NCBI GenBank assembly: GCA_963704655.1
Contig: OY969927.1
Location: forward strand, 1-64,000
Reading direction: 5' to 3'
Source: an uncultured Candidatus Babeliaceae bacterium
GTDB lineage: Bacteria > Babelota > Babeliae > Babelales > Babelaceae
DNA: 64,000 bases
The notes beneath the pieces are model-generated. The model made no database searches. It was given only the letters and a program-made list of their open reading frames with translations, and was not told where the DNA came from. The first letter of the stretch is position 1, and every line of letters starts with the position of its first letter. Below are positions 230-20,045 of the stretch, one piece after another. Both the position numbers and the translations under genes were made by a program.

Positions 230-1852
230 ATGGCATACAAAGAAATTATTTCCGATCTTTTTACCTCATCAAAGTTTAAAGCAAACATTAAATCTGGCTT
301 TACTGTTTCTCTTATATCACTACCGCTATCAATCTCACTAGCTGTTGCCTCCGGGGTAAGCCCCATAATGGGGATCATTACCGCTATTTGGGCGGGCGGC
401 ATAGCTGCGATTTTTGGAGGAAGTAATTATAATATTATCGCCCCGACAGGTGCCCCATCAGCTATTGTTGCAGCATATGCATTGGCCCATGGTGCTGAAA
501 ATGTCCCTCTATTGGCAATAACTACTGGTATTATAATTTTAATCGCGTGTCTACTCAGATTAGAACGGTACCTTATTTTTATACCATCAAGTGTTATTCA
601 TGGATTCATATTGGGTGTCGCTTGTATTATTGGTTTAAATCAGCTCAATTTTGCACTTGGGCTGCACAATTTACCAAAACATACCACTTTTATTGAAAAT
701 GTTACTGAATCGCTCGGTCATATTAATCAAACTTCTTGGTTAGCTTGTGCGCTCTTTATTACTTTTTTCTTAACTCTTCTTATAGTACGTAAGAAACTGC
801 CATCAGTTCCTGGCGCTATTATTATATCCCCCATCGGGATTCTTGTTGGTTATATTATTACAGATGTTATGCCCAGCGGTATTGAAACGCTGGCAACTAA
901 ATTTGGCACAATTTCGCCGCATTTTATGCAGCTACCAACACTTGCTTTTGATAGAAATCTTTTAATTCCAGCATCGATTATCGCCTTTATTGCTCTTATT
1001 GAAACAATACTTTCTGCGCGCATTGCTGATACCGCAACCAAGACAAAGCATCATACGCGAAAAGAGATCTTTGGCCTGGGGCTTGCAAATATTGCATCTG
1101 GTTTAATGGGCGGAATTCCTGCAACTGCGGCTTTAGCGCGCACGGCACTTAATATAAAATCAGGAGCTACCAGCAGAATTTCTGCTCTTTTTAATAGTTT
1201 TTTTCTTATTATAGGGTCATATCTTTTTCTGCGCTATTTTTCATATATCCCGATGCCTGTTATTGCGGCAATTTTAGTATATGTTGCAATAAATATGGTA
1301 GAACGTAAGCATTTTTATCGCTTATATTACCATGATAAAACTAGTTTTTTTATTGCGCTTCTTGTTGCTGCAGTTACCGTAACGCAAGACGCAATTGTGG
1401 GAATTTTGCTAGGCACGGTGATAGCGTTACTTATACTGGTTAATAAACTTTCACAAAGTTATTATGAAATCACGGTTCATGAAAGTCCAGCAGAACACAA
1501 AGCGCATAATGCGCAAGCGCAGAAAAGAAATATTCTTATTTACACTTTTAAAGGCAAATTGGTGTATCTGAATAACCAAGCGCATATTATGCATTTCAGA
1601 ACAGATTTTACAGACTATGCCGGCATAATTTTAGTTCTTGACGACCTTTATTTTATCGATTTAGACGGTGTTGATGCCCTTGAAGAAATTATTGAACTGA
1701 TAGAAGAACATCATCAAAGTGTTATGCTGGTGCATCCAAGCGTACATATTGAACACATGTTACAGAGCAGCAAAAAGTTTAAAGAGCTCAAGCGCAAAGG
1801 GCTTGTATTTGATTCTCTCGACGCGGCTCTTAAATTTTCAACAATTAAATAA
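230..1852 (+). CDS. sulP: SulP family anion transporter with C-terminal STAS domain
   Basis: G.TV..I.LPLS..LA.ASG, GGIPATAALART and STAS FIDLDG motifs; multiple TM helices. Confidence 0.92.
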   Translation: MAYKEIISDLFTSSKFKANIKSGFTVSLISLPLSISLAVASGVSPIMGIITAIWAGGIAAIFGGSNYNIIAPTGAPSAIVAAYALAHGAENVPLLAITTGIIILIACLLRLERYLIFIPSSVIHGFILGVACIIGLNQLNFALGLHNLPKHTTFIENVTESLGHINQTSWLACALFITFFLTLLIVRKKLPSVPGAIIISPIGILVGYIITDVMPSGIETLATKFGTISPHFMQLPTLAFDRNLLIPASIIAFIALIETILSARIADTATKTKHHTRKEIFGLGLANIASGLMGGIPATAALARTALNIKSGATSRISALFNSFFLIIGSYLFLRYFSYIPMPVIAAILVYVAINMVERKHFYRLYYHDKTSFFIALLVAAVTVTQDAIVGILLGTVIALLILVNKLSQSYYEITVHESPAEHKAHNAQAQKRNILIYTFKGKLVYLNNQAHIMHFRTDFTDYAGIILVLDDLYFIDLDGVDALEEIIELIEEHHQSVMLVHPSVHIEHMLQSSKKFKELKRKGLVFDSLDAALKFSTIK

Positions 1853-1969
1853 CGCGTTACCTTAAAGATACTAAAAGAAAGACTTTATTTGAGGCTTTTT
1901 TTAATATTTGCTATCATAAAAAATACAATTTAATAATAATTATGGCGATAATAGCCAATTAGGGACATT

Positions 1970-3184
1970 ATGAAACGATTTATACTATTTACACTTATAT
2001 TTACACTTTCAAGCGTGATATTTTCTGCAGAACAAGCACCTTTGCGCTTTGATCCTGAAAGTGAAACGTTAGTAAATATGTATTGTAAAGCGGTTATTAC
2101 ACCCGGATTGCACCTAGGAAATGTTGCTCGATTAAGCAATTTTTTAGCACGTGTGGCTGGAAGGCAACAACCCGCGCCTGAGCAAACTATCATTAGTAGC
2201 GTTGCGTTTAGTCCAGATGGCAATACTCTCGCAATTGGATTGCCTGATAAAACAATAAGGCTATACAATTCACGCACGGGCAAACAATTACAAAAATTTG
2301 TTGGGCATAAAGACAGTGTAAAGTGTGTTGCATTTAGTCGTGATGGTGATCGTCTAGCAAGCGGATCGGATGATTGTACCGTAAGATATTGGAATACTCA
2401 AACCGGTCGACTATTAAAGAAGTTACAGGGGCATACAATGGGCGTGAGGGGTATTGCTTCTAGCCCTTATGATAATAATATTGTAGCAAGCGGATCAGCT
2501 GATGGAACGGTAAGGATTTGGAGTACTCAAACGGGTCAAGAATTAAAGAAACTAGAGGGACATCAAGGTTCTGTAACAAGCGTCGCTTTTAGTCCTCATG
2601 ATAATAATACCATAGTAAGCGCTTGCTGGGATCAAACGGTAAGACTTTGGAATGGCAGCACGGGCGAAGAATTGAAGATGTTAGAAGGGGATACAGATTT
2701 AATAACCAGTATGGCATTTTGTCGTGATGGCACTTTAGCAATCGGCCCATGTGATCGAACAATTAGGATTTGGGATATTCTAACAGACAAAGAATTGCAA
2801 AAAATAAATGTTGATAGCGATTGGGTAAATAGCGTTGCGTTTAGTCCTGACGGCAAAGTTTTAGTAAGCGGATCGCGTAGGTGCGAAATAAGCTTTTGGG
2901 ATGCCAAAACTGGTCAGCAATTAATAGAATTAGATGGGCACAAAGGTAGTGTAACGAGCGTTACCTATAGTCCTGATGGAGACAGCCTAGCTAGCGGATC
3001 GGCTGATGGAACGGTAAGATTATGGGATATATCAGCAATTCGTAACTCAATAGAGATCAAAAATGCGCAACTTTTAATTGTCGCGGCCACAACTCAACTT
3101 AATGCGTTAAGGACACTTTGCATTAAACTTGCTTCAAGTAACGCAATTGCAGCGCGTGCAAAAAATAATCAAGAAAATAAGTGA
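1970..3184 (+). CDS. Secreted WD40 repeat protein (7 blades), paralog 1
   Basis: Signal peptide; GH..SV..VAFSPDG..LASGS.D.T+R+W repeats. Confidence 0.92.
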   Translation: MKRFILFTLIFTLSSVIFSAEQAPLRFDPESETLVNMYCKAVITPGLHLGNVARLSNFLARVAGRQQPAPEQTIISSVAFSPDGNTLAIGLPDKTIRLYNSRTGKQLQKFVGHKDSVKCVAFSRDGDRLASGSDDCTVRYWNTQTGRLLKKLQGHTMGVRGIASSPYDNNIVASGSADGTVRIWSTQTGQELKKLEGHQGSVTSVAFSPHDNNTIVSACWDQTVRLWNGSTGEELKMLEGDTDLITSMAFCRDGTLAIGPCDRTIRIWDILTDKELQKINVDSDWVNSVAFSPDGKVLVSGSRRCEISFWDAKTGQQLIELDGHKGSVTSVTYSPDGDSLASGSADGTVRLWDISAIRNSIEIKNAQLLIVAATTQLNALRTLCIKLASSNAIAARAKNNQENK

Positions 3185-3194
3185 TAAAGGCATC

Positions 3195-4343
3195 ATGAAA
3201 CGATTTATACTATTTATCCTGTTATTCACGCTTCAAACCTTGATATTTTCTGCCGAGCAAGCGCCAAGTTCGCTATCTTTACGCTTTGATCCTGAAAGTG
3301 AAACATTAGTAAATACGTATTGTAAAGCTGTTCTTAAGGGGCATGCAGGTTGTGTAAAAAGCGTTGCATTTAGCCCGCATGATAATAATATTCTAGCTAG
3401 TGGCTCGGATGATAAAACAATAAGACTTTGGGATACGCAAACGGGCCAACAAGTAAAGCAATTAAATGGGCATATAAAAGGTGTGTGTAGTGTTGCATTT
3501 AGCCCTAAGAATAGTAATATTCTTGCAAGTGGCTCAAATGATAGCTCAATAATACTTTGGGATATGCAAACGGGCCAACAAGTACGTCAATTAAATGGAC
3601 ATAAAGGTTATGTAAATTGTGTTGCATTTAGCCCTAAGAATAGTAATATTCTTGCAAGTGGCTCACATGATAGCTCAATAATACTTTGGGATATGCAAAC
3701 GGGTCAACAAGTAAAGCAATTAAATGGGCACACAGGTGTTGTATATAGTGTTGCATTTAAAAAAGATGGCGATACTCTTGCAAGCTGCTCTTGGGATAGT
3801 ACGATAAGACTTTGGGATCTTAAAAGAGGCATGCAAGTAAGTCGATTAAAGGGAAGTGATAATCGGACATTAGGCGAGTTAACAGGTGTTGCATTTAGTC
3901 CGCATGATAGTAATATTCTTGCAAGTGGATCGAGTGATAGTACAATACGGCTTTGGGATATTGAAACTGGTAATGAAGAAAAGCGATTTAAGGGCCACAA
4001 AGGCTATGTATATAGCGTTGCTTTTAGTCCACATGGTAAATATATAGCAAGCGGTTTGAATGATAATACTATAAGACTTTGGGATATTGAAACGGGCCAG
4101 CAATTAAAACAACTCGATGGGCATACAAATTGGGTAAATAGCGTTGCGTTTAGTCAAGATGGCAACACTTTAGCAAGTGGATCAGGGAATGCTCTTAGAC
4201 CAGAAGAGGATAATACCGTAAGGTTGTGGGATATGCAAGCAATCAATGCCGAAAGAATGCTCAAAAATGCCCAAACTTTAGCTGCAAACGCCCAAGATCA
4301 AATTAAGGAGCTGGGAGAATCAGTGTTTAGATTGCTTCAATAA
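3195..4343 (+). CDS. Secreted WD40 repeat protein (7 blades), paralog 2
   Basis: Start moved to ATG 3195 (MKRFILF, as in the paralogs, preceded by AAAGG); 7 WD40 repeats. Confidence 0.92.
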
Positions 4344-4399
4344 ATGCAACATCTAGCTCGTGCAAAAGAATAATCAAGAAAATAAATGATAAAGGCATC

Positions 4400-5572
4400 A
4401 TGAAACGATTTATACTTTTTATCCTGTTATTTACATTTCAAAGCGTAACATTTTGTGCTGAGCAAGCAACGTTAAAGTCACTGTCTTTACGCTTTGATCC
4501 TGAAAGTGAAGAATTAGTAAATACGTATTGTAAAGCTGTTCTTAAAGGGCATGCAAATAGTGTATATAGCGTTGCATTTAGCCCGCATGATAATAATATT
4601 CTTGCAAGTGGGTCTTGGGATAAAACAATAAGAATTTGGAATACTCAAAGTGGCCAACAATTAAAGCAATTAGATGGACATAAAGGTTCTGTAAAAAGCG
4701 TTGCATTTAGCCCGCATGAAAAAATTATCGCAAGTGGATCGGGTGATGGTACAATACGGCTTTGGGATGTCAAGACTGGCCAACAATTAAAGCAACTAGA
4801 TGGGCATACAGATTGGATACGTAGCATTGCATTTAGCCCTCATGATAGAAATATTCTAGCAAGTGGATCAGATGATAACACAATAAGAATTTGGGATGTC
4901 AAGACTGGCCAACAAGTAAAGCAATTAGATGGGCATACAAATTGGGTATATAGCGTTGCATTTAGCCCGCATGATAGTAATACACTAGCAAGTGGCTCAT
5001 ACGATAACTCGATAAGACTTTGGGATGTCAAGACTGGCCAACAATTAAAGCAATTAGATGGACATAAAGGTTCTGTAAATAGCATTGCATTTAGCCCTCA
5101 TGATAGTAATACACTAGCAAGTGGCTCATACGATAACTCGATAAGACTTTGGGATGTCAAGACTGGCCAACAATTAAAGCAATTAGATGGACATAAAGGT
5201 TCTGTAAATAGCGTTGCATTTAGCCCTCATGATAGTAATATTCTAGCAAGTGGATCTCGGGATAACTTGATAGAACTTTGGGATATTGAAAAGGGCCAAC
5301 AAGTAAAGCAACTAGATGGGCATACAAATTTGGTATGGAGCGTTGCATTTAGCCCTGATGGTGAGTCTTTAGCAAGCGGATCGTATGATGGAACGGTAAG
5401 GTTGTGGGATGTAAAAGCAATTCTGGATGGAATTAAGACCAAAGAGATCCAACGTGATACTGCCGCCGCCACAACTCAACTTAATGCGTTAAGAACATCA
5501 GTATTTAGATTGTTTCAAGTAACGCAATTGCAGCGCTTGCAAATAAATAATATTCAAGAAAATAAACGATAA
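4400..5572 (+). CDS. Secreted WD40 repeat protein (7 blades), paralog 3
   Basis: Signal peptide and 7 highly similar WD40 repeats. Confidence 0.93.
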
Positions 5573-5579
5573 AGGCACC

Positions 5580-6716
5580 ATGAAACGATTTATACTTTTT
5601 ATCCTGTTATTTACACTTCAAAACGTAACATTTTGTGCTGAGCAAGCAACGTTAAAGTCACTATCTTTACGCTTTGATCCTGAAAGTGAAGAATTAGTAA
5701 ATACGTATTGTAAAGCTGTTCTTAAAGGGCATATAAATAGTGTATATAGCGTTGCATTTAGCCCGCATGATAATAATATTCTTGCAAGTGGGTCTTGGGA
5801 TAAAACAATAAGAATTTGGAATACTCAAAGTGGCCAACAAGTAAAGCGATTAGATGGGCACACAGGTTCTGTAAATAGTGTTGCATTTAGCCCGCATGAT
5901 AGTAATATTTTTGCAAGTGGATCAGATGATAAAACGATAAGACTTTGGGACATTCGAACTGGTCGACAAATACAGCAACTAGATGGGCATGCAGATCGTG
6001 TATCTTGTGTTGTATTTAGTCCGCATGGTAATAATACTCTAGCAAGTGCATCTTGGGATAACTCGATAACACTTTGGGATATTAAAACGTGCCAACAAGT
6101 AAAGCAATTAGATGGGCATACAAATTGGGTATATAGCGTTGCATTTAGCCCGCATGAAAAAATTATCGCAAGTGGATCGGGTGATGGTACAATACGGCTT
6201 TGGGATGTCAAGACTGGCCAACAATTAAAGCAACTAGATGGGCATACAGATTGGATACGTAGCATTGCATTTAGCCCTCATGATAGAAATATTCTAGCAA
6301 GTGGATCAGATGATAACACAATAAGAATTTGGGATGTCAAGACTGGCCAACAATTAAAGCAATTAGATGGACATACAGATCATGTATCTTGTGTTGTATT
6401 TAGTCCGCATGGTAATAATACTCTAGCAAGTGCATCTTGGGATAACTCGATAACACTTTGGGATATTAAAACGTGCCAACAAGTAAAGCAATTAGATGGG
6501 CATACAGATCAAGTAAAAAGCGTTGCATTTAGCCCTGATGGTGAGTCTTTAGCAAGCGGATCGGATCATGGAACGGTAAGGTTGTGGGATGTAAAAGCAA
6601 TTCTTGATGAAATAAAGACCAAAGAGATCCAGCGTAATACTGCCGCCGCCACAACTCAACTTAATGTGTTAAGGGCACTACTTTACATTAAGCTTGCTTC
6701 AAGTAACGCAATTTAA
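5580..6716 (+). CDS. Secreted WD40 repeat protein (7 blades), paralog 4
   Basis: Signal peptide and 7 WD40 repeats; 5' region nearly identical to paralog 3. Confidence 0.93.
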
Positions 6717-6722
6717 AATCTA

Positions 6723-7595
6723 TTATTCATGAAGCCAGGTGACATTAAAACTTTGGCCATTTGCTTGCAGCGCTGAAGCCGTTGCTTTAGGGACCATAAC
6801 GGGGCTTTTCATTGCTATATTGTCATTTTTCCAGTTGGGGTTATTGATCCCGCCCGTTACACCGCCAATAGTTGCCGTGCATTTAGTGAAAGCAATGGGG
6901 CTAAAGTGCGCTAGTGGAAGTATGGTTTTCATAAATGGCGCTTCAGCTATCCATTCGGCACAGCCACGTACTGCTGTTTTTGAAGTTGTGTAAGCAGTTG
7001 GAATAGTGGTATACACTTTGCGCGTTGTATTAGAAATGGTCATAAGAAATATATTATTCCCTTTATATTCTATTGCTGTACTGATAACATCGCCGGGAAT
7101 TACCGGAAAGCCACTTATTTCAAATGCTGCATTTGGGTACATTTCAAACCATGCATAATGGACCACTTGGCCACTGTGCCATTCATGCGCGGTGCCTATT
7201 TGTTCAACCGTGCTATTATTATAACCGTCAATACCAATCCAAACTGAGCTATACGTATCTGGTATTTGAGGCGATGATGGAGCTGAGACAGTTGGAACAA
7301 CCCATGTTCCCGATACTGCAGTTACACTATTGGGAATAACCATTGTAAGATTTTTTGCAGCGACATAACCGCACCAGTTATTACTGACGCCTTTTTTGAG
7401 CGGAATTAATGGGTGGGTGTAGGGTACAAGTTCACCAGTAGAGCGTGTTGCCGGATCTTCTTGTTCAAAAGGTCGTACTCTTAATTTTATTTCGCATTCA
7501 AGTTCCATAAAATCATCAGGTATATTTTCGCTATATACAAAGCCAGAATATAATGCGCTTATTAAAAATAGATAGGAGAGTGTTATATGTTTCAT
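6723..7595 (-). CDS. Secreted glutamic peptidase, family G1 (peptidase A4/eqolisin)
   Basis: SNNWCGY, SVWIGIDG, EQIGT, AWFEMYP and AEWIAEAP motifs; signal peptide. Confidence 0.88.
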   Translation of the reverse strand: MKHITLSYLFLISALYSGFVYSENIPDDFMELECEIKLRVRPFEQEDPATRSTGELVPYTHPLIPLKKGVSNNWCGYVAAKNLTMVIPNSVTAVSGTWVVPTVSAPSSPQIPDTYSSVWIGIDGYNNSTVEQIGTAHEWHSGQVVHYAWFEMYPNAAFEISGFPVIPGDVISTAIEYKGNNIFLMTISNTTRKVYTTIPTAYTTSKTAVRGCAEWIAEAPFMKTILPLAHFSPIAFTKCTATIGGVTGGINNPNWKNDNIAMKSPVMVPKATASALQANGQSFNVTWLHE

Positions 7596-7679
7596 AGGTA
7601 TCTTTCGGGTTATAGAGTTTTATTACGTAAAAACTACTATAACTCGTAATGTCAGATATTTTGCAAGAATTTTAAAAAA

Positions 7680-9041
7680 TTAGCTAAAAATTATTCTACT
7701 AATAACGCAATAAATAAATAATCCAACAACATCGATAAGGGTTGCTAAAATCGGCCCAGCGGCATGGGCAGGGTCGATACCAATTTTCTTTAAAATAATA
7801 GGCATGGTTGAGCCTAAAAGCATTGAAAAGAAGATAATGGTCAATAGCGAAATGCTTACGGTGAATGAGCCCATGAGATTGTCGTTTCCTATATAGGTGC
7901 GCACAAAAGAAAGAGATGCCAGTACTAACCCAAGTGCAGCGGCCATGAGCATTTCACGTTTAATAAATAAAGATTTATTTTGGTGATCGATCTCGCCGGT
8001 TGCCATTCCTTGTATAGCAAGGGCCGATGTTTGTGAGCTGGCGTTGCCACCCGTACTGATAAGCATGGTAACGAAAAAGCCAAGAAAGCCCGCTAAAGTG
8101 GCTTCATAAGCTTGTAAAATAATACTGGAAACGGACTGCAGTAAAAATAAAATGATTAAAATAATGCTGCGCTGTGAGAAGAGTTTAATAAATGACGTTT
8201 CAAAGTAATTACGTTTAATTGGTGTAACTGCAGACATACGGTAAATATCTTCACTGGCCTCTTGTTCAATAATTTCAACAAGCGTGTCACTGGAAATGAT
8301 ACCTAAAAAGTCGTTTTCTTTATCAACAACTGGTGCGATCATAAGGCTATAGTGCTTCATAATCTGGGCGATCTCACGCTGGTCCTCGTCCACGGGGATA
8401 GCAATTTCAGATTCACGCATAAATGAGCTAATACGAGTCTTTGGTGTTTTTAAAACCAAATCTGCTAACAGTATATACCCTACAAGTTCGCCATTTTGGT
8501 TGGTGACAAAGATCTTTTCGTGTAAATTTCTACTTGGTTGGATCTTTTGTAAAATATAGATACTCTTTTCAACGGTGAAATCTTCCATCAACGTAATAAC
8601 GTTGGTGTGCATAATGCTGCCGGCTGATTCAGGGGCAAATTTTAAAAGTGAGATAACCTTTTCACGGTCCTTTTTATGTAATAGCTTAAGATACTTTTTA
8701 AGCTCGTCATCAGAAAGTTCATCAAAAAAGTCAGTAAGTTCGTCAATTGAAAGATTTCTGAGCAAAAGACTGCGTTCAGTATCATCTAAAAGGGTTAAAC
8801 AGTAAATTTTTAGTTTAGTTGAAAGTTCATGAAAGACTTTGGCCATTAAAACTTCAGGCAGTCTTAAAAATATCTTCTTGATGGTTTCATGGTCACAGTG
8901 GCCCAGAAAGTGGGCGATATCTGCAGGGTGATATTCAAGAAAGCTCCGCCAGGCTTTTAGTATCTCTGGATAGTCGATCTGGTCAAGCTTATCAAGATGT
9001 TCCTTGATGGTGTCAAACGTTTTTTTTGGGTCCATGGGCAC
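7680..9041 (-). CDS. mgtE: Magnesium transporter MgtE
   Basis: HPADIA N-domain, CBS pair, GGNASSQT and DPAHAAGPILATLID motifs. Confidence 0.93.
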   Translation of the reverse strand: MPMDPKKTFDTIKEHLDKLDQIDYPEILKAWRSFLEYHPADIAHFLGHCDHETIKKIFLRLPEVLMAKVFHELSTKLKIYCLTLLDDTERSLLLRNLSIDELTDFFDELSDDELKKYLKLLHKKDREKVISLLKFAPESAGSIMHTNVITLMEDFTVEKSIYILQKIQPSRNLHEKIFVTNQNGELVGYILLADLVLKTPKTRISSFMRESEIAIPVDEDQREIAQIMKHYSLMIAPVVDKENDFLGIISSDTLVEIIEQEASEDIYRMSAVTPIKRNYFETSFIKLFSQRSIILIILFLLQSVSSIILQAYEATLAGFLGFFVTMLISTGGNASSQTSALAIQGMATGEIDHQNKSLFIKREMLMAAALGLVLASLSFVRTYIGNDNLMGSFTVSISLLTIIFFSMLLGSTMPIILKKIGIDPAHAAGPILATLIDVVGLFIYCVISRIIFS

Positions 9042-18269: not shown

Positions 18270-18773
18270 ATGAAAAAATTAGTATTAATGCTGTTTGTTT
18301 GCCCATTGCTTGCAATGGGAGGAGAAAACGTAGGGCTTATTGCCAAAAACCAGCTTTTAGTAAAGTATAACGCAGCAGGGCACATTCAAAGCGCTTTGGT
18401 AGACAACCAGCCAACTGCCCAGTCTTCCATGGATACACAGGCGCGGCGGTTAACATTAAAAGAACGCTTAGAGGCTTTTCAAAAAAGGGCACAAACAGAA
18501 TCTACTCGAGAAAGAGAATGCGTAGAATGTTTTACGCTGCGGCCAAGTAGACCTACTGGTTGTGCAACAGATGGCATATTAGGTGCAGGGCTCATCGCTG
18601 TCGTTATGCCTCTCTATTGTGCAAGCAATCCTCCAGTGGCAATTGGCCTTGGTGTTACCGGGGCCGTTCTTTGCACGTGCGGCGTTTGTGTGGGTGCTGC
18701 GGCAAACAGAATAATAGATGGGCCTTTGTATGATGAAAGTGGTACGTTGCTAAAAGATGCAATCAAGCGCTAA
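18270..18773 (+). CDS. Signal peptide plus Cys-rich hydrophobic hairpin protein
   Basis: MKKLV...LLAM; two C-terminal hydrophobic segments. Confidence 0.8.
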   Translation: MKKLVLMLFVCPLLAMGGENVGLIAKNQLLVKYNAAGHIQSALVDNQPTAQSSMDTQARRLTLKERLEAFQKRAQTESTRERECVECFTLRPSRPTGCATDGILGAGLIAVVMPLYCASNPPVAIGLGVTGAVLCTCGVCVGAAANRIIDGPLYDESGTLLKDAIKR

Positions 18774-18793
18774 TCAAAGCAGAGGAACTTTTT

Positions 18794-19177
18794 ATGAAAA
18801 AGTTAGTTGTAGTATTTGTTGTTGGACAATTATTAGCGATGGATGATCGATCGGCTTTGCTTAATAAATCTGATGCTGAAAATTATCTTGCCATTATGCG
18901 TCAGCCTAACAATGTTGTGGTTATTCAACGCGGAGAGCAAAAACGATCTAAGCCTTGTATGACCCCTGCTCAAGGTAGGCTCTGCCTTTCCACAGCGTGT
19001 GCTGCTGGAGGTTGCATAACAGGTGGAGTAGGTTGTGGTTTTGCTTTTTGTTGTGGAAGTGTGGTAAATATGGTAGCAGCTAAAGCGTGTATTGCAGGTT
19101 TTGTTATTGGTGCCGCAGGGTTTGCAGGCTGTTTTGTGAGCGCTCAAGAGACTGATCTTGAAAAAGCGCGTCGCTAA
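18794..19177 (+). CDS. Signal peptide plus Cys-rich hydrophobic hairpin protein
   Basis: MKKLV...LLAMDD; Gly/Cys-rich bilobed hydrophobic region; GAGGA RBS. Confidence 0.8.
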   Translation: MKKLVVVFVVGQLLAMDDRSALLNKSDAENYLAIMRQPNNVVVIQRGEQKRSKPCMTPAQGRLCLSTACAAGGCITGGVGCGFAFCCGSVVNMVAAKACIAGFVIGAAGFAGCFVSAQETDLEKARR

Positions 19178-19248
19178 ATAGACTTTTTTATGCTTATTGA
19201 CGTTTTTGCTATATCTTTAGTAGAAGTTTTTTATATTAAGGGAATTCT

Positions 19249-19635
19249 ATGAAAAAAATAGCACTTTTATTTTTGGTTAGTGTTAATTCTTTGGTGGCAA
19301 TGGATGCAAAATTAAGATTTATAATCAAGCAACCTGAACGTTTACAAGAGATGTTTAAAGAGAAAAGCCAAGCTTTAAATTACCATTATAATAGGTTCAC
19401 TGATGCAGCAAGTATTCAAGGGTCACCTGCTAGCGCTTGCGCAGACTGTCTGACATGCTGTTGTGTTGGTTGTAGCGCATCAGCTGGAACCGCGGCTCTT
19501 GTGCTTACCTCTATTGCAAATGATGGTAACCCCACTGTTATAGCTCTTGCACTTGGGTGTGCTACATGGAGTGGAATGAGCTATTTGTTTGCAGAGAAAT
19601 TATCTCATGATAAAAATAAAAAAAAACGAGATTAA
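19249..19635 (+). CDS. Signal peptide plus Cys-rich hydrophobic hairpin protein, ends KKKRD
   Basis: MKKI...LVAMD; CADCLTCCCVGC; two hydrophobic segments. Confidence 0.8.
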   Translation: MKKIALLFLVSVNSLVAMDAKLRFIIKQPERLQEMFKEKSQALNYHYNRFTDAASIQGSPASACADCLTCCCVGCSASAGTAALVLTSIANDGNPTVIALALGCATWSGMSYLFAEKLSHDKNKKKRD

Positions 19636-19672
19636 AAAATTATAAGCCCTCGCGAAAATCGGGGTTTTTTTT

Positions 19673-20045
19673 CTATTATTGGCGATGGATGATCAGCAAT
19701 CTTTAGTTAGTCGTGAAACTGCTGCTGTTGGATATCAAGCAATTACGCAGCAATACAAATAATGTTCAAGCTACTACACAACGCTGTACTTACTGTCAGA
19801 GAGAGCTTTGTTCGCTTTGTTGTAATGGGTCAGTTGAAAATAAAATAAGAGATTGTAAAGTATTTTCTGGTTTTGCGTTGCTTTTCGGCGGCGTTATTGT
19901 CTGTTATGGGGCTCTTATTGGTGCGCCATTGGCCACGCCGACGATTCTTGGCGGCTTCATCGGTGTAGGTGGTGGTGGTTCATCATGTCTTGCACTTCGC
20001 TTGACAGAAAAAAATATGATTTCAATAATCAATAAGATTGATTGA
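19673..20045 (+). pseudogene. Frameshifted, 5'-truncated paralog of 18794..19177
   Basis: One frame reads LLLAMDDQQSLVSRETAAVGYQAITQQ (cf. LLAMDDRSALLNKSDAENYLAIMRQ); after about 19754 the adjacent frame continues TNNVQ... into the Cys-rich hairpin. Confidence 0.65.

What the first reader, a model, noticed from the sequence alone, without database searches (positions are those of the whole stretch)
1970..6716. Secreted WD40 propeller array diversified by shuffling of DNA repeat modules
Seen: four tandem genes share a signal peptide and an [18 protein letters not shown] cap, and each keeps exactly 7 blades. Blocks are copied at DNA level: 4697-4915 (blades 2-3 of gene 3) appears identical by eye to 6135-6353 (blades 4-5 of gene 4). 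There are also within-gene duplications at 129-bp period (about 4970-5083 vs 5099-5212). Variation concentrates after GH (ANSVYS, KGSVKS, TDWIRS, TNWVYS, ADRVSC) and in SGSxD (W/G/D/Y/R/H/N). Established: fungal HET-D/E-type WD40 repeats evolve by concerted evolution with hypervariable binding-face residues. Inference: an exported, recombination-diversified set of binding proteins aimed at host or phage targets.
Basis: partly seen in the sequence, partly recalled or inferred. Interest (0 to 1): 0.78.

Follow-up and report, generated by a model that had tools for sequence, protein, structure and literature searches.

The report
Exported WD40 propeller genes swapping blades
A protist-infecting Dependentiae bacterium carries four neighbouring genes for exported seven-bladed WD40 binding proteins, and the two youngest have recently swapped blade and half-blade DNA segments, a known way of evolving binding surfaces seen here in a new setting.

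Summary
There are four tandem + strand genes (1970-3184, 3195-4343, 4400-5572, 5580-6716). Each has a signal-peptide-like leader, the [18 protein letters not shown] cap and seven WD40 blades. The named blocks are identical: 219/219 and 114/114 nt.

The genome is a 1.3-Mb single-contig Babeliaceae (Dependentiae/TM6). Genes 3 and 4 are recent duplicates. Their ends are in register, and their inner blades were rearranged by out-of-register recombination. One blade (gene 4, blade 4) is a clean half-blade recombinant, with the crossover inside the conserved SVAFSPH-coding stretch. Genes 1 and 2 are older and show little or no recent exchange.

The four most variable codons (7, 9, 26, 28 of the 43-residue unit) match the four top-face codons reported under positive selection in fungal HET-E/D.

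I found no reverse transcriptase and no invertible repeats. RecA is present, so ordinary homologous recombination is the likely mechanism.

Export, host targeting and adaptive value are inferred, not shown. The cap and the C-terminal helix have no detectable relatives. The array is absent at the syntenic site in two congeners.

This scan has already noted exported WD40 arrays (Poribacteria, Dependentiae) and HET-E-like hypervariable WD40 in a bacterial NLR on other DNA. Verdict: a real, well-resolved new variant of a known kind, of moderate interest.

The parts
1889..1937 (+). Three overlapping sigma-70-like promoter candidates upstream of gene 1 (weak)
   Evidence: consensus matches of 9 of 12. 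The region as a whole has fewer such sites (15) than shuffles (mean 20.2), so this is a hint only. No + strand terminator-like site lies within the array.
1970..3184 (+). Gene 1: leader, cap, 7 diverged WD40 blades (first blade with an insertion), C-terminal helix tail
   Evidence: Mean blade-to-blade amino-acid identity 0.43. Blades are 53-76% nt identical to all others.
3195..4343 (+). Gene 2: leader, cap, 7 blades; blades 2 and 3 are a within-gene pair (87.6% nt)
   Evidence: The start at ATG 3195 is taken by homology with the other three genes and the conserved AAAGG...ATG junction.
4400..5572 (+). Gene 3: leader (4400-4459), cap (4460-4540), blades 1-7 (4541-5410), helix tail (5411-5569)
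   Evidence: AlphaFold2 pLDDT 90.8, propeller residues 44-337, single helix 338-389. Mean blade identity 0.71.
5580..6716 (+). Gene 4: leader, cap, blades 1-7 (5721-6590), tail; a mosaic gene
   Evidence: painting:
- 5580-5873 in register with gene 3 (97%).
- 5961-6125 matches 6345-6509 (97%).
- 6084-6167 matches 4901-4984 (97%).
- 6126-6368 matches 4688-4930 (100%).
- 6495-6701 in register with gene 3 (90%).
4697..4915 (+). Exchange tract, copy in gene 3 (blade 2 from codon 10 to near the end of blade 3)
   Evidence: 219/219 identical to 6135-6353, offset 1438 = gene period 1180 + 258 (two blades).
6135..6353 (+). Exchange tract, copy in gene 4 (blades 4-5)
   Evidence: A public contig (X1 record 6, 6104-6228, 0 differences) bridges its left edge with 31 letters on the left.
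6108..6233 (+). Gene 4 blade 4: half-blade recombinant (5' part = gene 3 blade 4, 3' part = gene 3 blade 2)
   Evidence: nt 1-50 are identical to g3b4 and nt 28-126 identical to g3b2. The 23-nt overlap (6135-6157) codes the conserved SVAFSPH stretch.
4970..5083 (+). Within-gene duplicate, first copy (gene 3 blade 4 into blade 5)
   Evidence: 114/114 with 5099-5212 at 129-nt offset. X4 record 17 (4920-5070) bridges its left edge.
5099..5212 (+). Within-gene duplicate, second copy (gene 3 blade 5 into blade 6)
5999..6122 (+). Gene 4 blade 3 block, repeated three blades later
   Evidence: 124/124 with 6383-6506 (offset 384). g4b3/g4b6 are 96.9% identical and pair on the tree with 100/99 support.
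6383..6506 (+). Gene 4 blade 6 block (copy of 5999-6122)
5411..5572 (+). C-terminal tail of gene 3: a single long helix. The DNA is homologous in all four genes, but small indels shift the frame of the last 15-20 codons
   Evidence: No relative in 1.84 billion representatives at E <= 0.001. No Pfam hit.

Best explanation
This is a lineage-specific tandem family of four genes in a Babeliaceae (Dependentiae) parasite of protists. Each protein is a cleavable-looking Sec leader, a short cap that supplies the closing ('velcro') strand, one seven-bladed WD40 propeller and a long C-terminal helix.

How the family evolves:
- It grew by tandem duplication of a unit of about 1.2 kb that includes the ribosome-binding site.
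- The blade-coding repeats are 126-129 nt long and share conserved scaffold stretches. The cell's ordinary homologous recombination (RecA is present) therefore exchanges and duplicates blades and half-blades, both out of register between genes 3 and 4 and within each gene.
- Crossovers fall in the conserved scaffold DNA between the two variable patches (codons 5-9 and 26-28). Exchange therefore re-pairs the patches that line the top, ligand-binding face.
- Blade number stays at seven, and the first and last blades stay positional. This fits the fold needing seven blades and blade 7 pairing with the cap strand.

The result is a small, changing set of exported binding modules, most likely acting on host proteins after Sec export and perhaps type II secretion.

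Shown: gene structure, fold, mosaic history, position of the variation.
Inferred: export, host targets, and that the variation is selected rather than merely tolerated.
For: Identity and fold:
- Pfam gives 7 WD40 stretches in 4 of 4 proteins.
- AlphaFold2 gives pLDDT 90.8, 28 strands, and strand 44-49 (YCKAVL) closing blade 7.
- The best solved matches are WRAP-T designs, Thermomonospora PkwA and the Nostoc 'highly repetitive propeller' 2ymu, at 46-48% identity, TM 0.95-0.98 on the target.

Recombination:
- Exact tracts are listed.
- On the blade tree, blades of genes 3 and 4 do not group by gene. Gene 3 needs 7 label changes and starred branches force at least 5.
- The starred pairs are g3b2+g4b4 and g3b3+g4b5 (out of register), g3b1+g4b1 and g3b7+g4b7 (in register), and g4b3+g4b6 and g2b2+g2b3 (within gene).
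- All four combinations of two 5' modules (TNWVY / KGSV[KN]) and two 3' modules (YDNS / GDGT) exist: g3b4, g4b4, g3b2, g3b5.
- RecA is present.

Variable face:
- The highest pN is at codons 7, 26, 9 and 28. No random 4-site set out of 20,000 reached their pN.
- In the model these codons lie just before or at the start of strand a and in the b-c turn.
- These are the places Paoletti 2007 puts on the top face and Wu 2012 calls hotspots R1-2, R1 and D-1 (abstract).
- There are 26 distinct 4-site combinations among 28 blades.
- In four close, non-recombinant blade pairs, 8 of 48 nt differ in these codons against 11 of 438 elsewhere (Fisher p = 1.7e-4). This is driven by the blade-7 pair (7/12 against 3/87).

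Export and host:
- All 24 ORFs with WD blades in this genome start with a basic-then-hydrophobic leader by eye (21 of 24 by my heuristic).
- SecA and BamA are in the window, and the genome has two secretins.
- Pagnier 2015 (PMC4378268, passages) and Yeoh 2015 (PMC4776705, passages) describe WD40 and other repeat proteins of this phylum. [quoted passage not shown]
- A related genus (G006) has arrays of leader + F-box + 7-blade WD40 genes. An F-box works within the eukaryotic SCF ubiquitin-ligase machinery (established knowledge, not tested here).
Against: - No experiment or expression data exist. Signal peptides were judged by eye, and my heuristic also flags 296 of 603 background ORFs.
- An uncleaved anchor or a periplasmic role is not excluded.
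- pN/pS at the four sites is only 1.19, near saturation and from non-independent pairs. The old, non-exchanging gene 1 shows the same hot-versus-rest contrast, so the variability pattern alone does not show ongoing selection.
- Three of the four close pairs show little or no hot-site excess.
- Recent exchange is limited to genes 3 and 4, and long exact repeats are common elsewhere in this genome. Recombination here may simply be what repeats do.
- This array has no F-box.
- No second strain with this array was found, so population-level diversity is unknown apart from one low-depth contig.
Confidence: 0.6

Rival explanations
1. Neutral concerted evolution of a repeat family. Blade exchange is an unselected by-product of homologous recombination between similar repeats. 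Top-face variability only reflects weak constraint. The proteins may serve the bacterium's own periplasm or envelope rather than act on the host.
For: - The same hot-versus-scaffold contrast is seen in the old gene 1.
- pN/pS at the four sites is about 1, the neutral value.
- The frame of the last 15-20 codons of the tails differs between paralogs, which suggests loose constraint there.
Against: - All four ORFs are intact with exactly seven blades despite repeated out-of-register exchange.
- Scaffold codons are under purifying selection (pN/pS 0.43).
- In the blade-7 pair, 7 of 10 differences fall in 12 of 99 nt.
- Canonical GH/WD propellers of this type are protein-binding platforms (Wu 2012 abstract).
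- Relatives fuse them to F-boxes.
Confidence: 0.27
2. Assembly artefact: the mosaic blade order, or the identical blocks, arose from mis-joining or collapse of repeats during assembly.
For: - The source reads were not available.
- Public contigs are short (87-242 nt) and low depth (2-5x).
- By the tool's 31-letter rule they bridge only two repeat edges: 6135 by X1 record 6 and 4970 by X4 record 17.
Against: - The genome is one 1,298,077-bp contig.
- The longest exact repeat in the array is only 219 nt.
- The two edges that are bridged agree with the assembly with 0 differences.
- Every gene keeps an open frame and seven blades.
Confidence: 0.04
3. A programmed diversification system: a diversity-generating retroelement, an invertase shufflon, or silent-cassette antigenic variation with genes 1 and 2 as donors.
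For: The array has tandem related genes with localised hypervariable patches, and one public contig shows a blade adjacency absent from the assembly (X2 record 11 joins 4808 to 5992; one contig, depth 2.5).
Against: - No reverse transcriptase was found in the genome with PF00078; the genome is 96% complete.
- There is only one 16-nt inverted repeat pair in 1800-7700.
- No recombinase gene lies in the flanks.
- All four genes have their own start, leader and ribosome-binding site, so none looks like a silent cassette.
- Genes 1 and 2 are not donors of any recent tract.
- Changes at hot codons involve all bases, not adenines only.
Confidence: 0.03

Closest known systems
Podospora anserina HET-E / HET-D / NWD family WD40 domains (Paoletti et al. 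2007, PMC1805685, passages read; Chevanne et al. 2010, PMC2873952, search listing only)
   Same: - WD40 units of 42-43 residues that are highly similar at DNA level.
- Exchange of repeats between paralogs.
- The same four hypervariable codons flanking two conserved ones: 7/9 and 25/27 there, 7/9 and 26/28 here (one extra loop residue), in the d-a loop and the b-c turn of the top face.
   Different: - The fungal proteins are cytoplasmic NLR-type receptors with HET and NACHT domains and variable repeat numbers. These proteins have a leader, no NTPase (Pfam finds only WD40-type families) and a fixed count of seven.
- Fungal RIP has no counterpart here.
- Positive selection was shown there with codon models and 69 repeats; here it is only suggested.
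Bacterial highly repetitive WD40 propellers: WRAP of Nostoc punctiforme, PkwA of Thermomonospora (Hu et al. 2017, PMC5587647, passages; Pereira and Lupas 2022, PMC9218822, passages; Afanasieva et al. 2019, PMC6805158, listing only)
   Same: - Best structural matches are 7big, 5yzv and 2ymu at 46-48% identity.
- Gene 3 reaches the 'highly repetitive' cut-off of 0.7 internal identity (0.71 by my mean pairwise measure).
- The variable sites are the predicted hotspots, as Hu et al. note for this class.
   Different: - Those propellers are C-terminal sensor domains of STAND ATPases or kinases, often with 14 blades, and cytoplasmic. These are stand-alone, leader-bearing, single seven-blade rings in a tandem gene array.
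- 'Signal peptide' and words starting 'secret' occur 0 times in Hu et al.'s main text.
Eukaryote-like repeat proteins of Dependentiae and other host-associated bacteria (Pagnier et al. 2015, PMC4378268; Yeoh et al. 2015, PMC4776705; passages read)
   Same: Same phylum and lifestyle. They are expanded families of ankyrin, WD40 and other beta-propeller proteins. [quoted passage not shown]
   Different: The passages I read give domain counts and, in Pagnier's Figure 5, gene-neighbourhood maps of expanded families. They do not describe blade-level DNA exchange, hot-site analysis or this cap/tail architecture. The cap and the tail have no detectable relatives.
F-box/WD40 substrate receptors (FBXW type) and their bacterial mimics
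   Same: A seven-bladed WD40 ring used as a substrate-binding module. A related Babeliaceae genus (G006) has about 13 tandem genes, of which the two tested carry an F-box above Pfam cut-offs in front of 7 blades.
   Different: No F-box is detectable in this array. The 27-residue cap is too short to be one.

Membership tests
WD40 repeat beta-propeller (Pfam PF00400) | Tandem units of about 40 residues with GH...WD signature, scoring above the family cut-off | tested here: met
   244-300 bits against a cut-off of 27, with 7 stretches in each of 4 proteins.
WD40 repeat beta-propeller (Pfam PF00400) | Closed seven-bladed ring with velcro closure | tested here: met
   (prediction, pLDDT 90.8): 28 strands, with N-terminal strand 44-49 plus three C-terminal strands forming blade 7. 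TM 0.95-0.98 to solved 7-bladed WD40 rings.
Highly repetitive WD40 proteins (Hu et al. 2017) | Internal repeat identity of at least 0.7 (0.4-0.7 = moderately repetitive) | tested here: inconclusive
   by my own mean pairwise blade identity, not their WDSP pipeline: gene 3 0.71, gene 4 0.63, gene 2 0.60, gene 1 0.43.
HET-E/NWD-type NLR (STAND) receptors | NACHT/NB-ARC NTPase domain upstream of the WD40 repeats | tested here: not met
   only WD40-type families are listed among the best 25 (of 60 or more) for the four proteins. Only 47 residues (leader + cap) precede blade 1 in genes 2-4.
HET-E/NWD-type NLR (STAND) receptors | Hypervariability at codons 7, 9, 25, 27 of the unit and repeat exchange between paralogs | tested here: met
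   (codons 7, 9, 26, 28 rank first to fourth by pN). (exchange). Positions compared.
Sec-exported eukaryote-like proteins of Dependentiae | N-terminal signal peptide | tested here: inconclusive
   MKR + 12-14 hydrophobic residues + FSA/FCA then EQ. The heuristic is positive but permissive. No SignalP was available. The leader is a low-confidence helix in the model.
Sec-exported eukaryote-like proteins of Dependentiae | Delivery to the host and binding of a host protein | not testable with these tools
   Only context is available: SecA and BamA, two secretins, and literature on the phylum.
F-box/WD40 mimics | F-box domain N-terminal to the propeller | tested here: not met
   no F-box hit for the cap of gene 3 or the N-terminal region of gene 1 at E <= 1. 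The same call finds an F-box in two G006 proteins.
Diversity-generating retroelement targets | Reverse transcriptase plus template repeat with adenine-specific changes | tested here: not met
   no PF00078 match in the genome; substitutions are of all kinds.

The most novel reading that the evidence does not exclude
An obligate intracellular bacterium runs the same evolutionary engine as fungal HET-E immune receptors, but on secreted proteins. Half-blade DNA modules, each carrying one of the two top-face patches, are continually re-paired among paralogous exported propellers. This yields new binding specificities in an arms race with its protist host, so natural populations should hold many different blade orders at this locus. 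The one public contig with a blade adjacency not present in the assembly would be the first glimpse of that.
Probability: 0.22. Interest if true: 0.7.

Novelty: new variant of a known kind. Interest (0 to 1): 0.45.

Why it matters
Repeat proteins of Dependentiae and similar parasites are usually reported only as domain counts. This locus is young enough that individual recombination events, down to a 23-nt crossover zone, can be read directly.

It shows how a fixed-size propeller can change its binding face without losing the fold: the end blades stay put, the inner blades and half-blades move, and crossovers fall in scaffold DNA. It extends the HET-E style of repeat-driven variation from cytoplasmic NLR sensors to stand-alone exported propellers.

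If the variation is selected, these genes mark the host-contact interface of an uncultured parasite. They would be good candidates for finding host targets.

Tried and rejected
1. Other strains of this array.
- A word-based search of 5.8 billion proteins with residues 1-50 (leader + cap) gave no hit at E <= 10.
- An exact 21-nt cap-coding pattern gave 2 matches in genome contigs and 6 in metagenome contigs. On translation, all 8 were unrelated chance matches.
- No population comparison was therefore possible.

2. Public reads.
- 7 of 8 listed runs hold only part of the stretch; the best share of words is 0.21.
- The four runs laid gave 22 short contigs, with no piece spanning the stretch.
- Uncovered parts say nothing, so the assembly across most repeat edges could not be checked.
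- A second joint in X6 (5564 to 6713, 96 letters between) has only 27 letters on one side, and I do not use it.

3. Homo-oligomer test of the C-terminal helix (complex prediction, two copies of residues 41-390).
- The queue was full on five hand-ins, and then the tool was declared unavailable.
- Nothing was folded, so whether the tail forms a coiled coil is open.

4. The tail alone against 1.84 billion representatives gave 0 hits at E <= 0.001. Pfam on the tail and the cap gave nothing meaningful.

5. Synteny.
- MgtE is conserved in 5 of 5 congeners.
- SulP was not found with this query in 0 of 5.
- The WD40 array is not at the MgtE/peptidase site in G003 or G002.
- The G004 and G001 contigs end there, so they are uninformative.

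6. My first painting script excluded offsets that are not multiples of three and so missed the gene 3-gene 4 register. It was redone.

7. The signal-peptide heuristic turned out too permissive (296 of 603 background ORFs) to be strong evidence.

8. Model coordinates are not returned, so variable sites were placed by secondary-structure position and literature, not by measured geometry.

9. The full-length homology search was swamped by generic WD40 proteins: 7992 of 8000 scored candidates matched.

10. Literature.
- Searches for Dependentiae + WD40 (5 papers) and for WD40 + gene conversion + secreted + endosymbiont + repeat shuffling (0 papers) found no description of blade exchange in secreted bacterial WD40 proteins.
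- Subscription journals are not covered, and supplements were not consulted (Pagnier's Additional file 9 and Yeoh's tables S5/S6 may list such proteins).

Full report
WHAT IS THERE

The window is the first 64 kb of a single-contig genome of 1,298,077 bp, 96% complete, with about 38% G+C. A neighbouring gene is 84-87% identical in protein to MAGs titled Candidatus Babeliaceae. The organism is therefore a member of the Dependentiae (TM6), a phylum of small-genome parasites of protists (Yeoh 2015, PMC4776705; Pagnier 2015, PMC4378268; passages read).

Four + strand genes lie between a SulP-type transporter gene (230-1852) and a convergent Peptidase_A4 gene (6723-7595, - strand). They occupy 1970-3184, 3195-4343, 4400-5572 and 5580-6716. 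The gaps between them are 10, 56 and 7 nt. The junction sequence with AAAGG before the ATG is conserved. Promoter-like sites occur only upstream of gene 1, and no + strand terminator-like site lies inside the array (weak evidence for one operon).

All four proteins start MKRFILF..., with 12-14 hydrophobic residues ending FSA or FCA. They continue with LRFDPESE[TE]LVN[MT]YCKAV.

Pfam finds seven WD40 stretches in each of the four, and my own blade HMM does too. The AlphaFold2 model of gene 3 (17-row alignment, mean pLDDT 90.8, pTM 0.83) shows:
- a low-confidence leader helix;
- 28 strands forming seven blades, in which strand 44-49 (YCKAVL of the cap) joins the last three strands to close blade 7;
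- one long helix, 338-389.

The 'cap' is thus at least partly the velcro strand of the ring.

The blocks 4697-4915 and 6135-6353 are identical at 219 of 219 positions, and 4970-5083 and 5099-5212 at 114 of 114. Given a median 81% identity between inner blades of genes 3 and 4, a 219-nt identical run has a chance of about 3e-21.

HISTORY OF THE ARRAY

I cut the genes into 28 blade units and compared them at nucleotide level, on a maximum-likelihood tree and by sliding-window painting.

Genes 3 and 4 are recent tandem duplicates. Leader, cap, blade 1 and the start of blade 2 are 97% identical in register (10 differences in 294 nt). Blade 7 plus the tail are 90% identical in register.

Between these ends the order is scrambled:
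- g3b2 pairs with g4b4 (93.7%) and g3b3 with g4b5 (99.2%), a shift of two blades.
- g4b3 pairs with g4b6 (96.9%), a three-blade period inside gene 4.
- g3b4 pairs with g3b5 (93.0%), neighbours inside gene 3.
- g2b2 pairs with g2b3 (87.6%).

Six tree branches are strongly supported. Two join blades out of register across genes, two join first or last blades in register, and two join blades within a gene. Blades of gene 3 need the maximum of 7 label changes. The refutation criterion 'blades cluster by gene or position' is therefore not met for the inner blades of genes 3 and 4. It is met for blades 1 and 7.

Gene 1 is old (blades 53-76% identical to everything), and gene 2 is intermediate. Neither donated a recent tract.

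EXCHANGE BELOW THE LEVEL OF A BLADE

The nucleotide alignment shows that g4b4 equals g3b4 over nt 1-50 and equals g3b2 over nt 28-126. The crossover lies in the 23 nt common to all three, which code the conserved SVAFSPH stretch. g3b5 is the converse combination: a 5' part like g3b2 and a 3' part identical to g3b4.

With two 5' modules (TNWVY, KGSV[KN]) and two 3' modules (YDNS, GDGT), all four combinations exist. This is the four-gamete signature of recombination. The scaffold-coding DNA thus acts as the homology for crossovers. The two variable patches, one on either side, are re-paired.

WHERE THE VARIATION LIES

Among the 21 blades of genes 2-4, entropy peaks at unit positions 7, 26 and 9. 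Lesser peaks are at 35, 5, 18 and 28. Ranked by non-synonymous difference per site, the top four are 7, 26, 9 and 28.

Paoletti et al. 2007 report codons 7, 9, 25 and 27 of the 42-residue HET-E/D unit as positively selected. These flank conserved codons 8 and 26, in the d-a loop and the b-c turn on the top face (passages). With the one extra loop residue here, these are the same four codons.

In the model, position 7 lies just before strand a, position 9 is its second residue, and positions 26-28 lie in the turn between strands b and c. Wu et al. 2012 name R1-2, R1 and D-1 as top-face interaction hotspots (abstract).

Moderately variable positions 18-20 and 35-36 lie in the a-b and c-d loops, which I take to be the opposite face. 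'One face' therefore holds for the strongest sites only.

IS THE VARIATION SELECTED?

The evidence is mixed.
- pN/pS is 1.19 at the four a priori sites and 0.43 at the other 39. The hot sites are near saturation, the pairs are not independent, and no codon-model test was run.
- Gene 1, which shows no recent exchange, has the same contrast. This is what any WD40 protein shows.
- The better evidence comes from close pairs. In four non-recombinant pairs, 8 of 48 nt differ in the four codons against 11 of 438 elsewhere (p = 1.7e-4). This is carried almost wholly by the blade-7 pair (7 of 12 against 3 of 87, p = 5.5e-6). There, whole codons differ (TTG/CAA, TGG/AAA) while the scaffold differs at about 3% (3 of 87 nt).
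- The blade-1 pair has no difference at the four sites.

I read this as diversification that is at least tolerated and possibly selected. It is not proven.

MECHANISM OF EXCHANGE

RecA is present. No reverse transcriptase is found with PF00078. Only one 16-nt inverted pair lies in 1800-7700, and no recombinase gene lies in the flanks. Long exact direct repeats occur at many other loci in this genome (216 maximal pairs of 40 nt or more). Ordinary homologous recombination (unequal exchange and gene conversion) is the economical explanation.

EXPORT AND TARGETS (INFERRED)

All 24 ORFs with WD-type blades in this genome begin with a leader of the same kind. Most of them lie in several tandem arrays, chiefly 390-400 kb and 1101-1108 kb. 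The heuristic score (21 of 24 against 296 of 603 background ORFs) is weak because the rule is permissive.

SecA and BamA are in the window, and the genome has two secretins. Yeoh et al. report type II secretion components and two gspD copies in all seven TM6 genomes compared. Pagnier et al. argue that signal-peptide-bearing repeat proteins of Babela are secreted into the amoeba.

In another genus of the family (G006), about 13 tandem genes encode seven-bladed WD40 proteins. In the two whose N-termini I tested, a leader is followed by an F-box above Pfam's cut-offs. This is the layout of eukaryotic SCF substrate receptors. That supports host-directed roles for WD40 rings in this family, but this array itself has no F-box.

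Nothing suggests phage targets.

HOW SPECIFIC IS THIS ARRAY?

The leader + cap and the tail have no detectable relatives. The array is missing at the conserved RluD-MgtE-peptidase site in G003, where a serine-recombinase-like ORF follows. The MgtE neighbourhood of G002 lacks both the peptidase gene and the array. The contigs of G004 and G001 end there. Congeners have other leader-bearing WD40 arrays at 34-48% identity. The array is thus a young, lineage-specific expansion.

ASSEMBLY

Public runs hold only short, low-depth contigs. By the 31-letter rule, two repeat edges are bridged with no differences: 6135 by X1 record 6 and 4970 by X4 record 17.

One contig of run X2 (record 11, depth 2.5) joins 4808 to 5992. 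That places a gene-3-blade-2-type unit before a gene-4-blade-3-type unit, an adjacency not in the assembly. It may be a strain variant. It is a single observation.

The exact repeats are at most 219 nt in a one-contig genome, and all frames and blade counts are intact. I rate an artefact as unlikely.

COMPARISON WITH WHAT IS KNOWN

The fold and sequence type are those of bacterial highly repetitive WD40 propellers: WRAP-T designs, PkwA and 2ymu at 46-48% identity. Gene 3 reaches 0.71 internal identity against Hu et al.'s 0.7 cut-off. The mode of variation is that of HET-E/D.

The differences are:
- no NTPase or kinase domain;
- a leader;
- a fixed single ring;
- a tandem array of genes;
- an obligate intracellular parasite as owner.

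Leader-bearing WD40 'eukaryote-like proteins' are widely listed in symbiont genomics (listing). This scan has already noted exported WD40 arrays in Poribacteria and Dependentiae, and a HET-E-like WD40 in a bacterial NLR. I found no paper describing blade exchange in secreted bacterial WD40 proteins. Those searches cover open-access text only, and I read no supplements.

VERDICT

This is a new variant of a known kind. Its main value is as an unusually legible record of how a propeller's binding face can be rebuilt by recombination. Function remains inferred.

Noticed in passing
L045/L046 (G006:C1:936000-975999): Another Babeliaceae genus has about 13 tandem genes with seven WD40 blades, most of them starting with a hydrophobic leader. 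The two N-termini I tested carry an F-box (PF12937 28.1 and 37.1 bits against cut-off 24.3; PF00646 27.5 against 20.5). This is the layout of eukaryotic FBXW substrate receptors.
   Followed up: partly
window 4400-5572 versus P0022, P0034, P0047: Gene 3 is 60% identical over 294 residues to a Paramecium sonneborni WD40 protein, and they share the inter-blade linker [16 protein letters not shown]. It is 52% identical to a Nostoc kinase-WD40 protein. This could mean transfer from a ciliate host or convergence on a consensus. No tree was made.
   Followed up: partly
window 6723-7595 (- strand): A leader-bearing Peptidase_A4 (eqolisin/G1-type acid peptidase, E 1.4e-32) lies next to the array. The gene is conserved beside MgtE in two congeners (G003; G004 partial).
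   Followed up: partly
window 3100-3190, 4280-4343, 5480-5572, 6660-6716: The 3' ends of the four genes are homologous DNA, but 1-4 nt indels put the last 15-20 codons in different frames: ...KLASSNAI... in genes 1 and 4, ...FRL[FL]Q... in genes 2 and 3. The stop codons also fall at different places.
   Followed up: partly
window 18270-20045 (+ strand): Four consecutive small ORFs (110-167 aa). The first three start with an MKK-type leader, and all four have a Cys/Gly/Ala-rich hydrophobic C-terminal part. They look like a small tandem family of exported or membrane proteins.
   Followed up: no
own genome outside the window: 262-298 kb, 324-328 kb, 812-816 kb, 985-987 kb: Dense clusters of long exact direct repeats (up to 734 nt), with periods such as 108, 144 and 912 nt. 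Recently duplicated or converted repeat genes are common in this genome.
   Followed up: no
own genome 390059-400664 (+) and 1101468-1108590 (-): Two further tandem arrays of leader-bearing WD40 proteins (7 and 5 genes). Many have 100-200-residue C-terminal extensions, and the two tested give only weak coiled-coil-type Pfam hits. They show few long exact repeats.
   Followed up: partly
L034 (G003:C18:4398-5861): At the place where this genome has the WD40 array, congener G003 has a serine-recombinase-like ORF followed by unrelated small genes. This suggests a variable insertion region downstream of the peptidase gene.
   Followed up: no
window 1-64000: GC skew is positive in 31 of 32 2-kb bins and the cumulative skew rises from 2 kb to the end. 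The window probably lies just after the replication origin, with the array on the leading strand.
   Followed up: no
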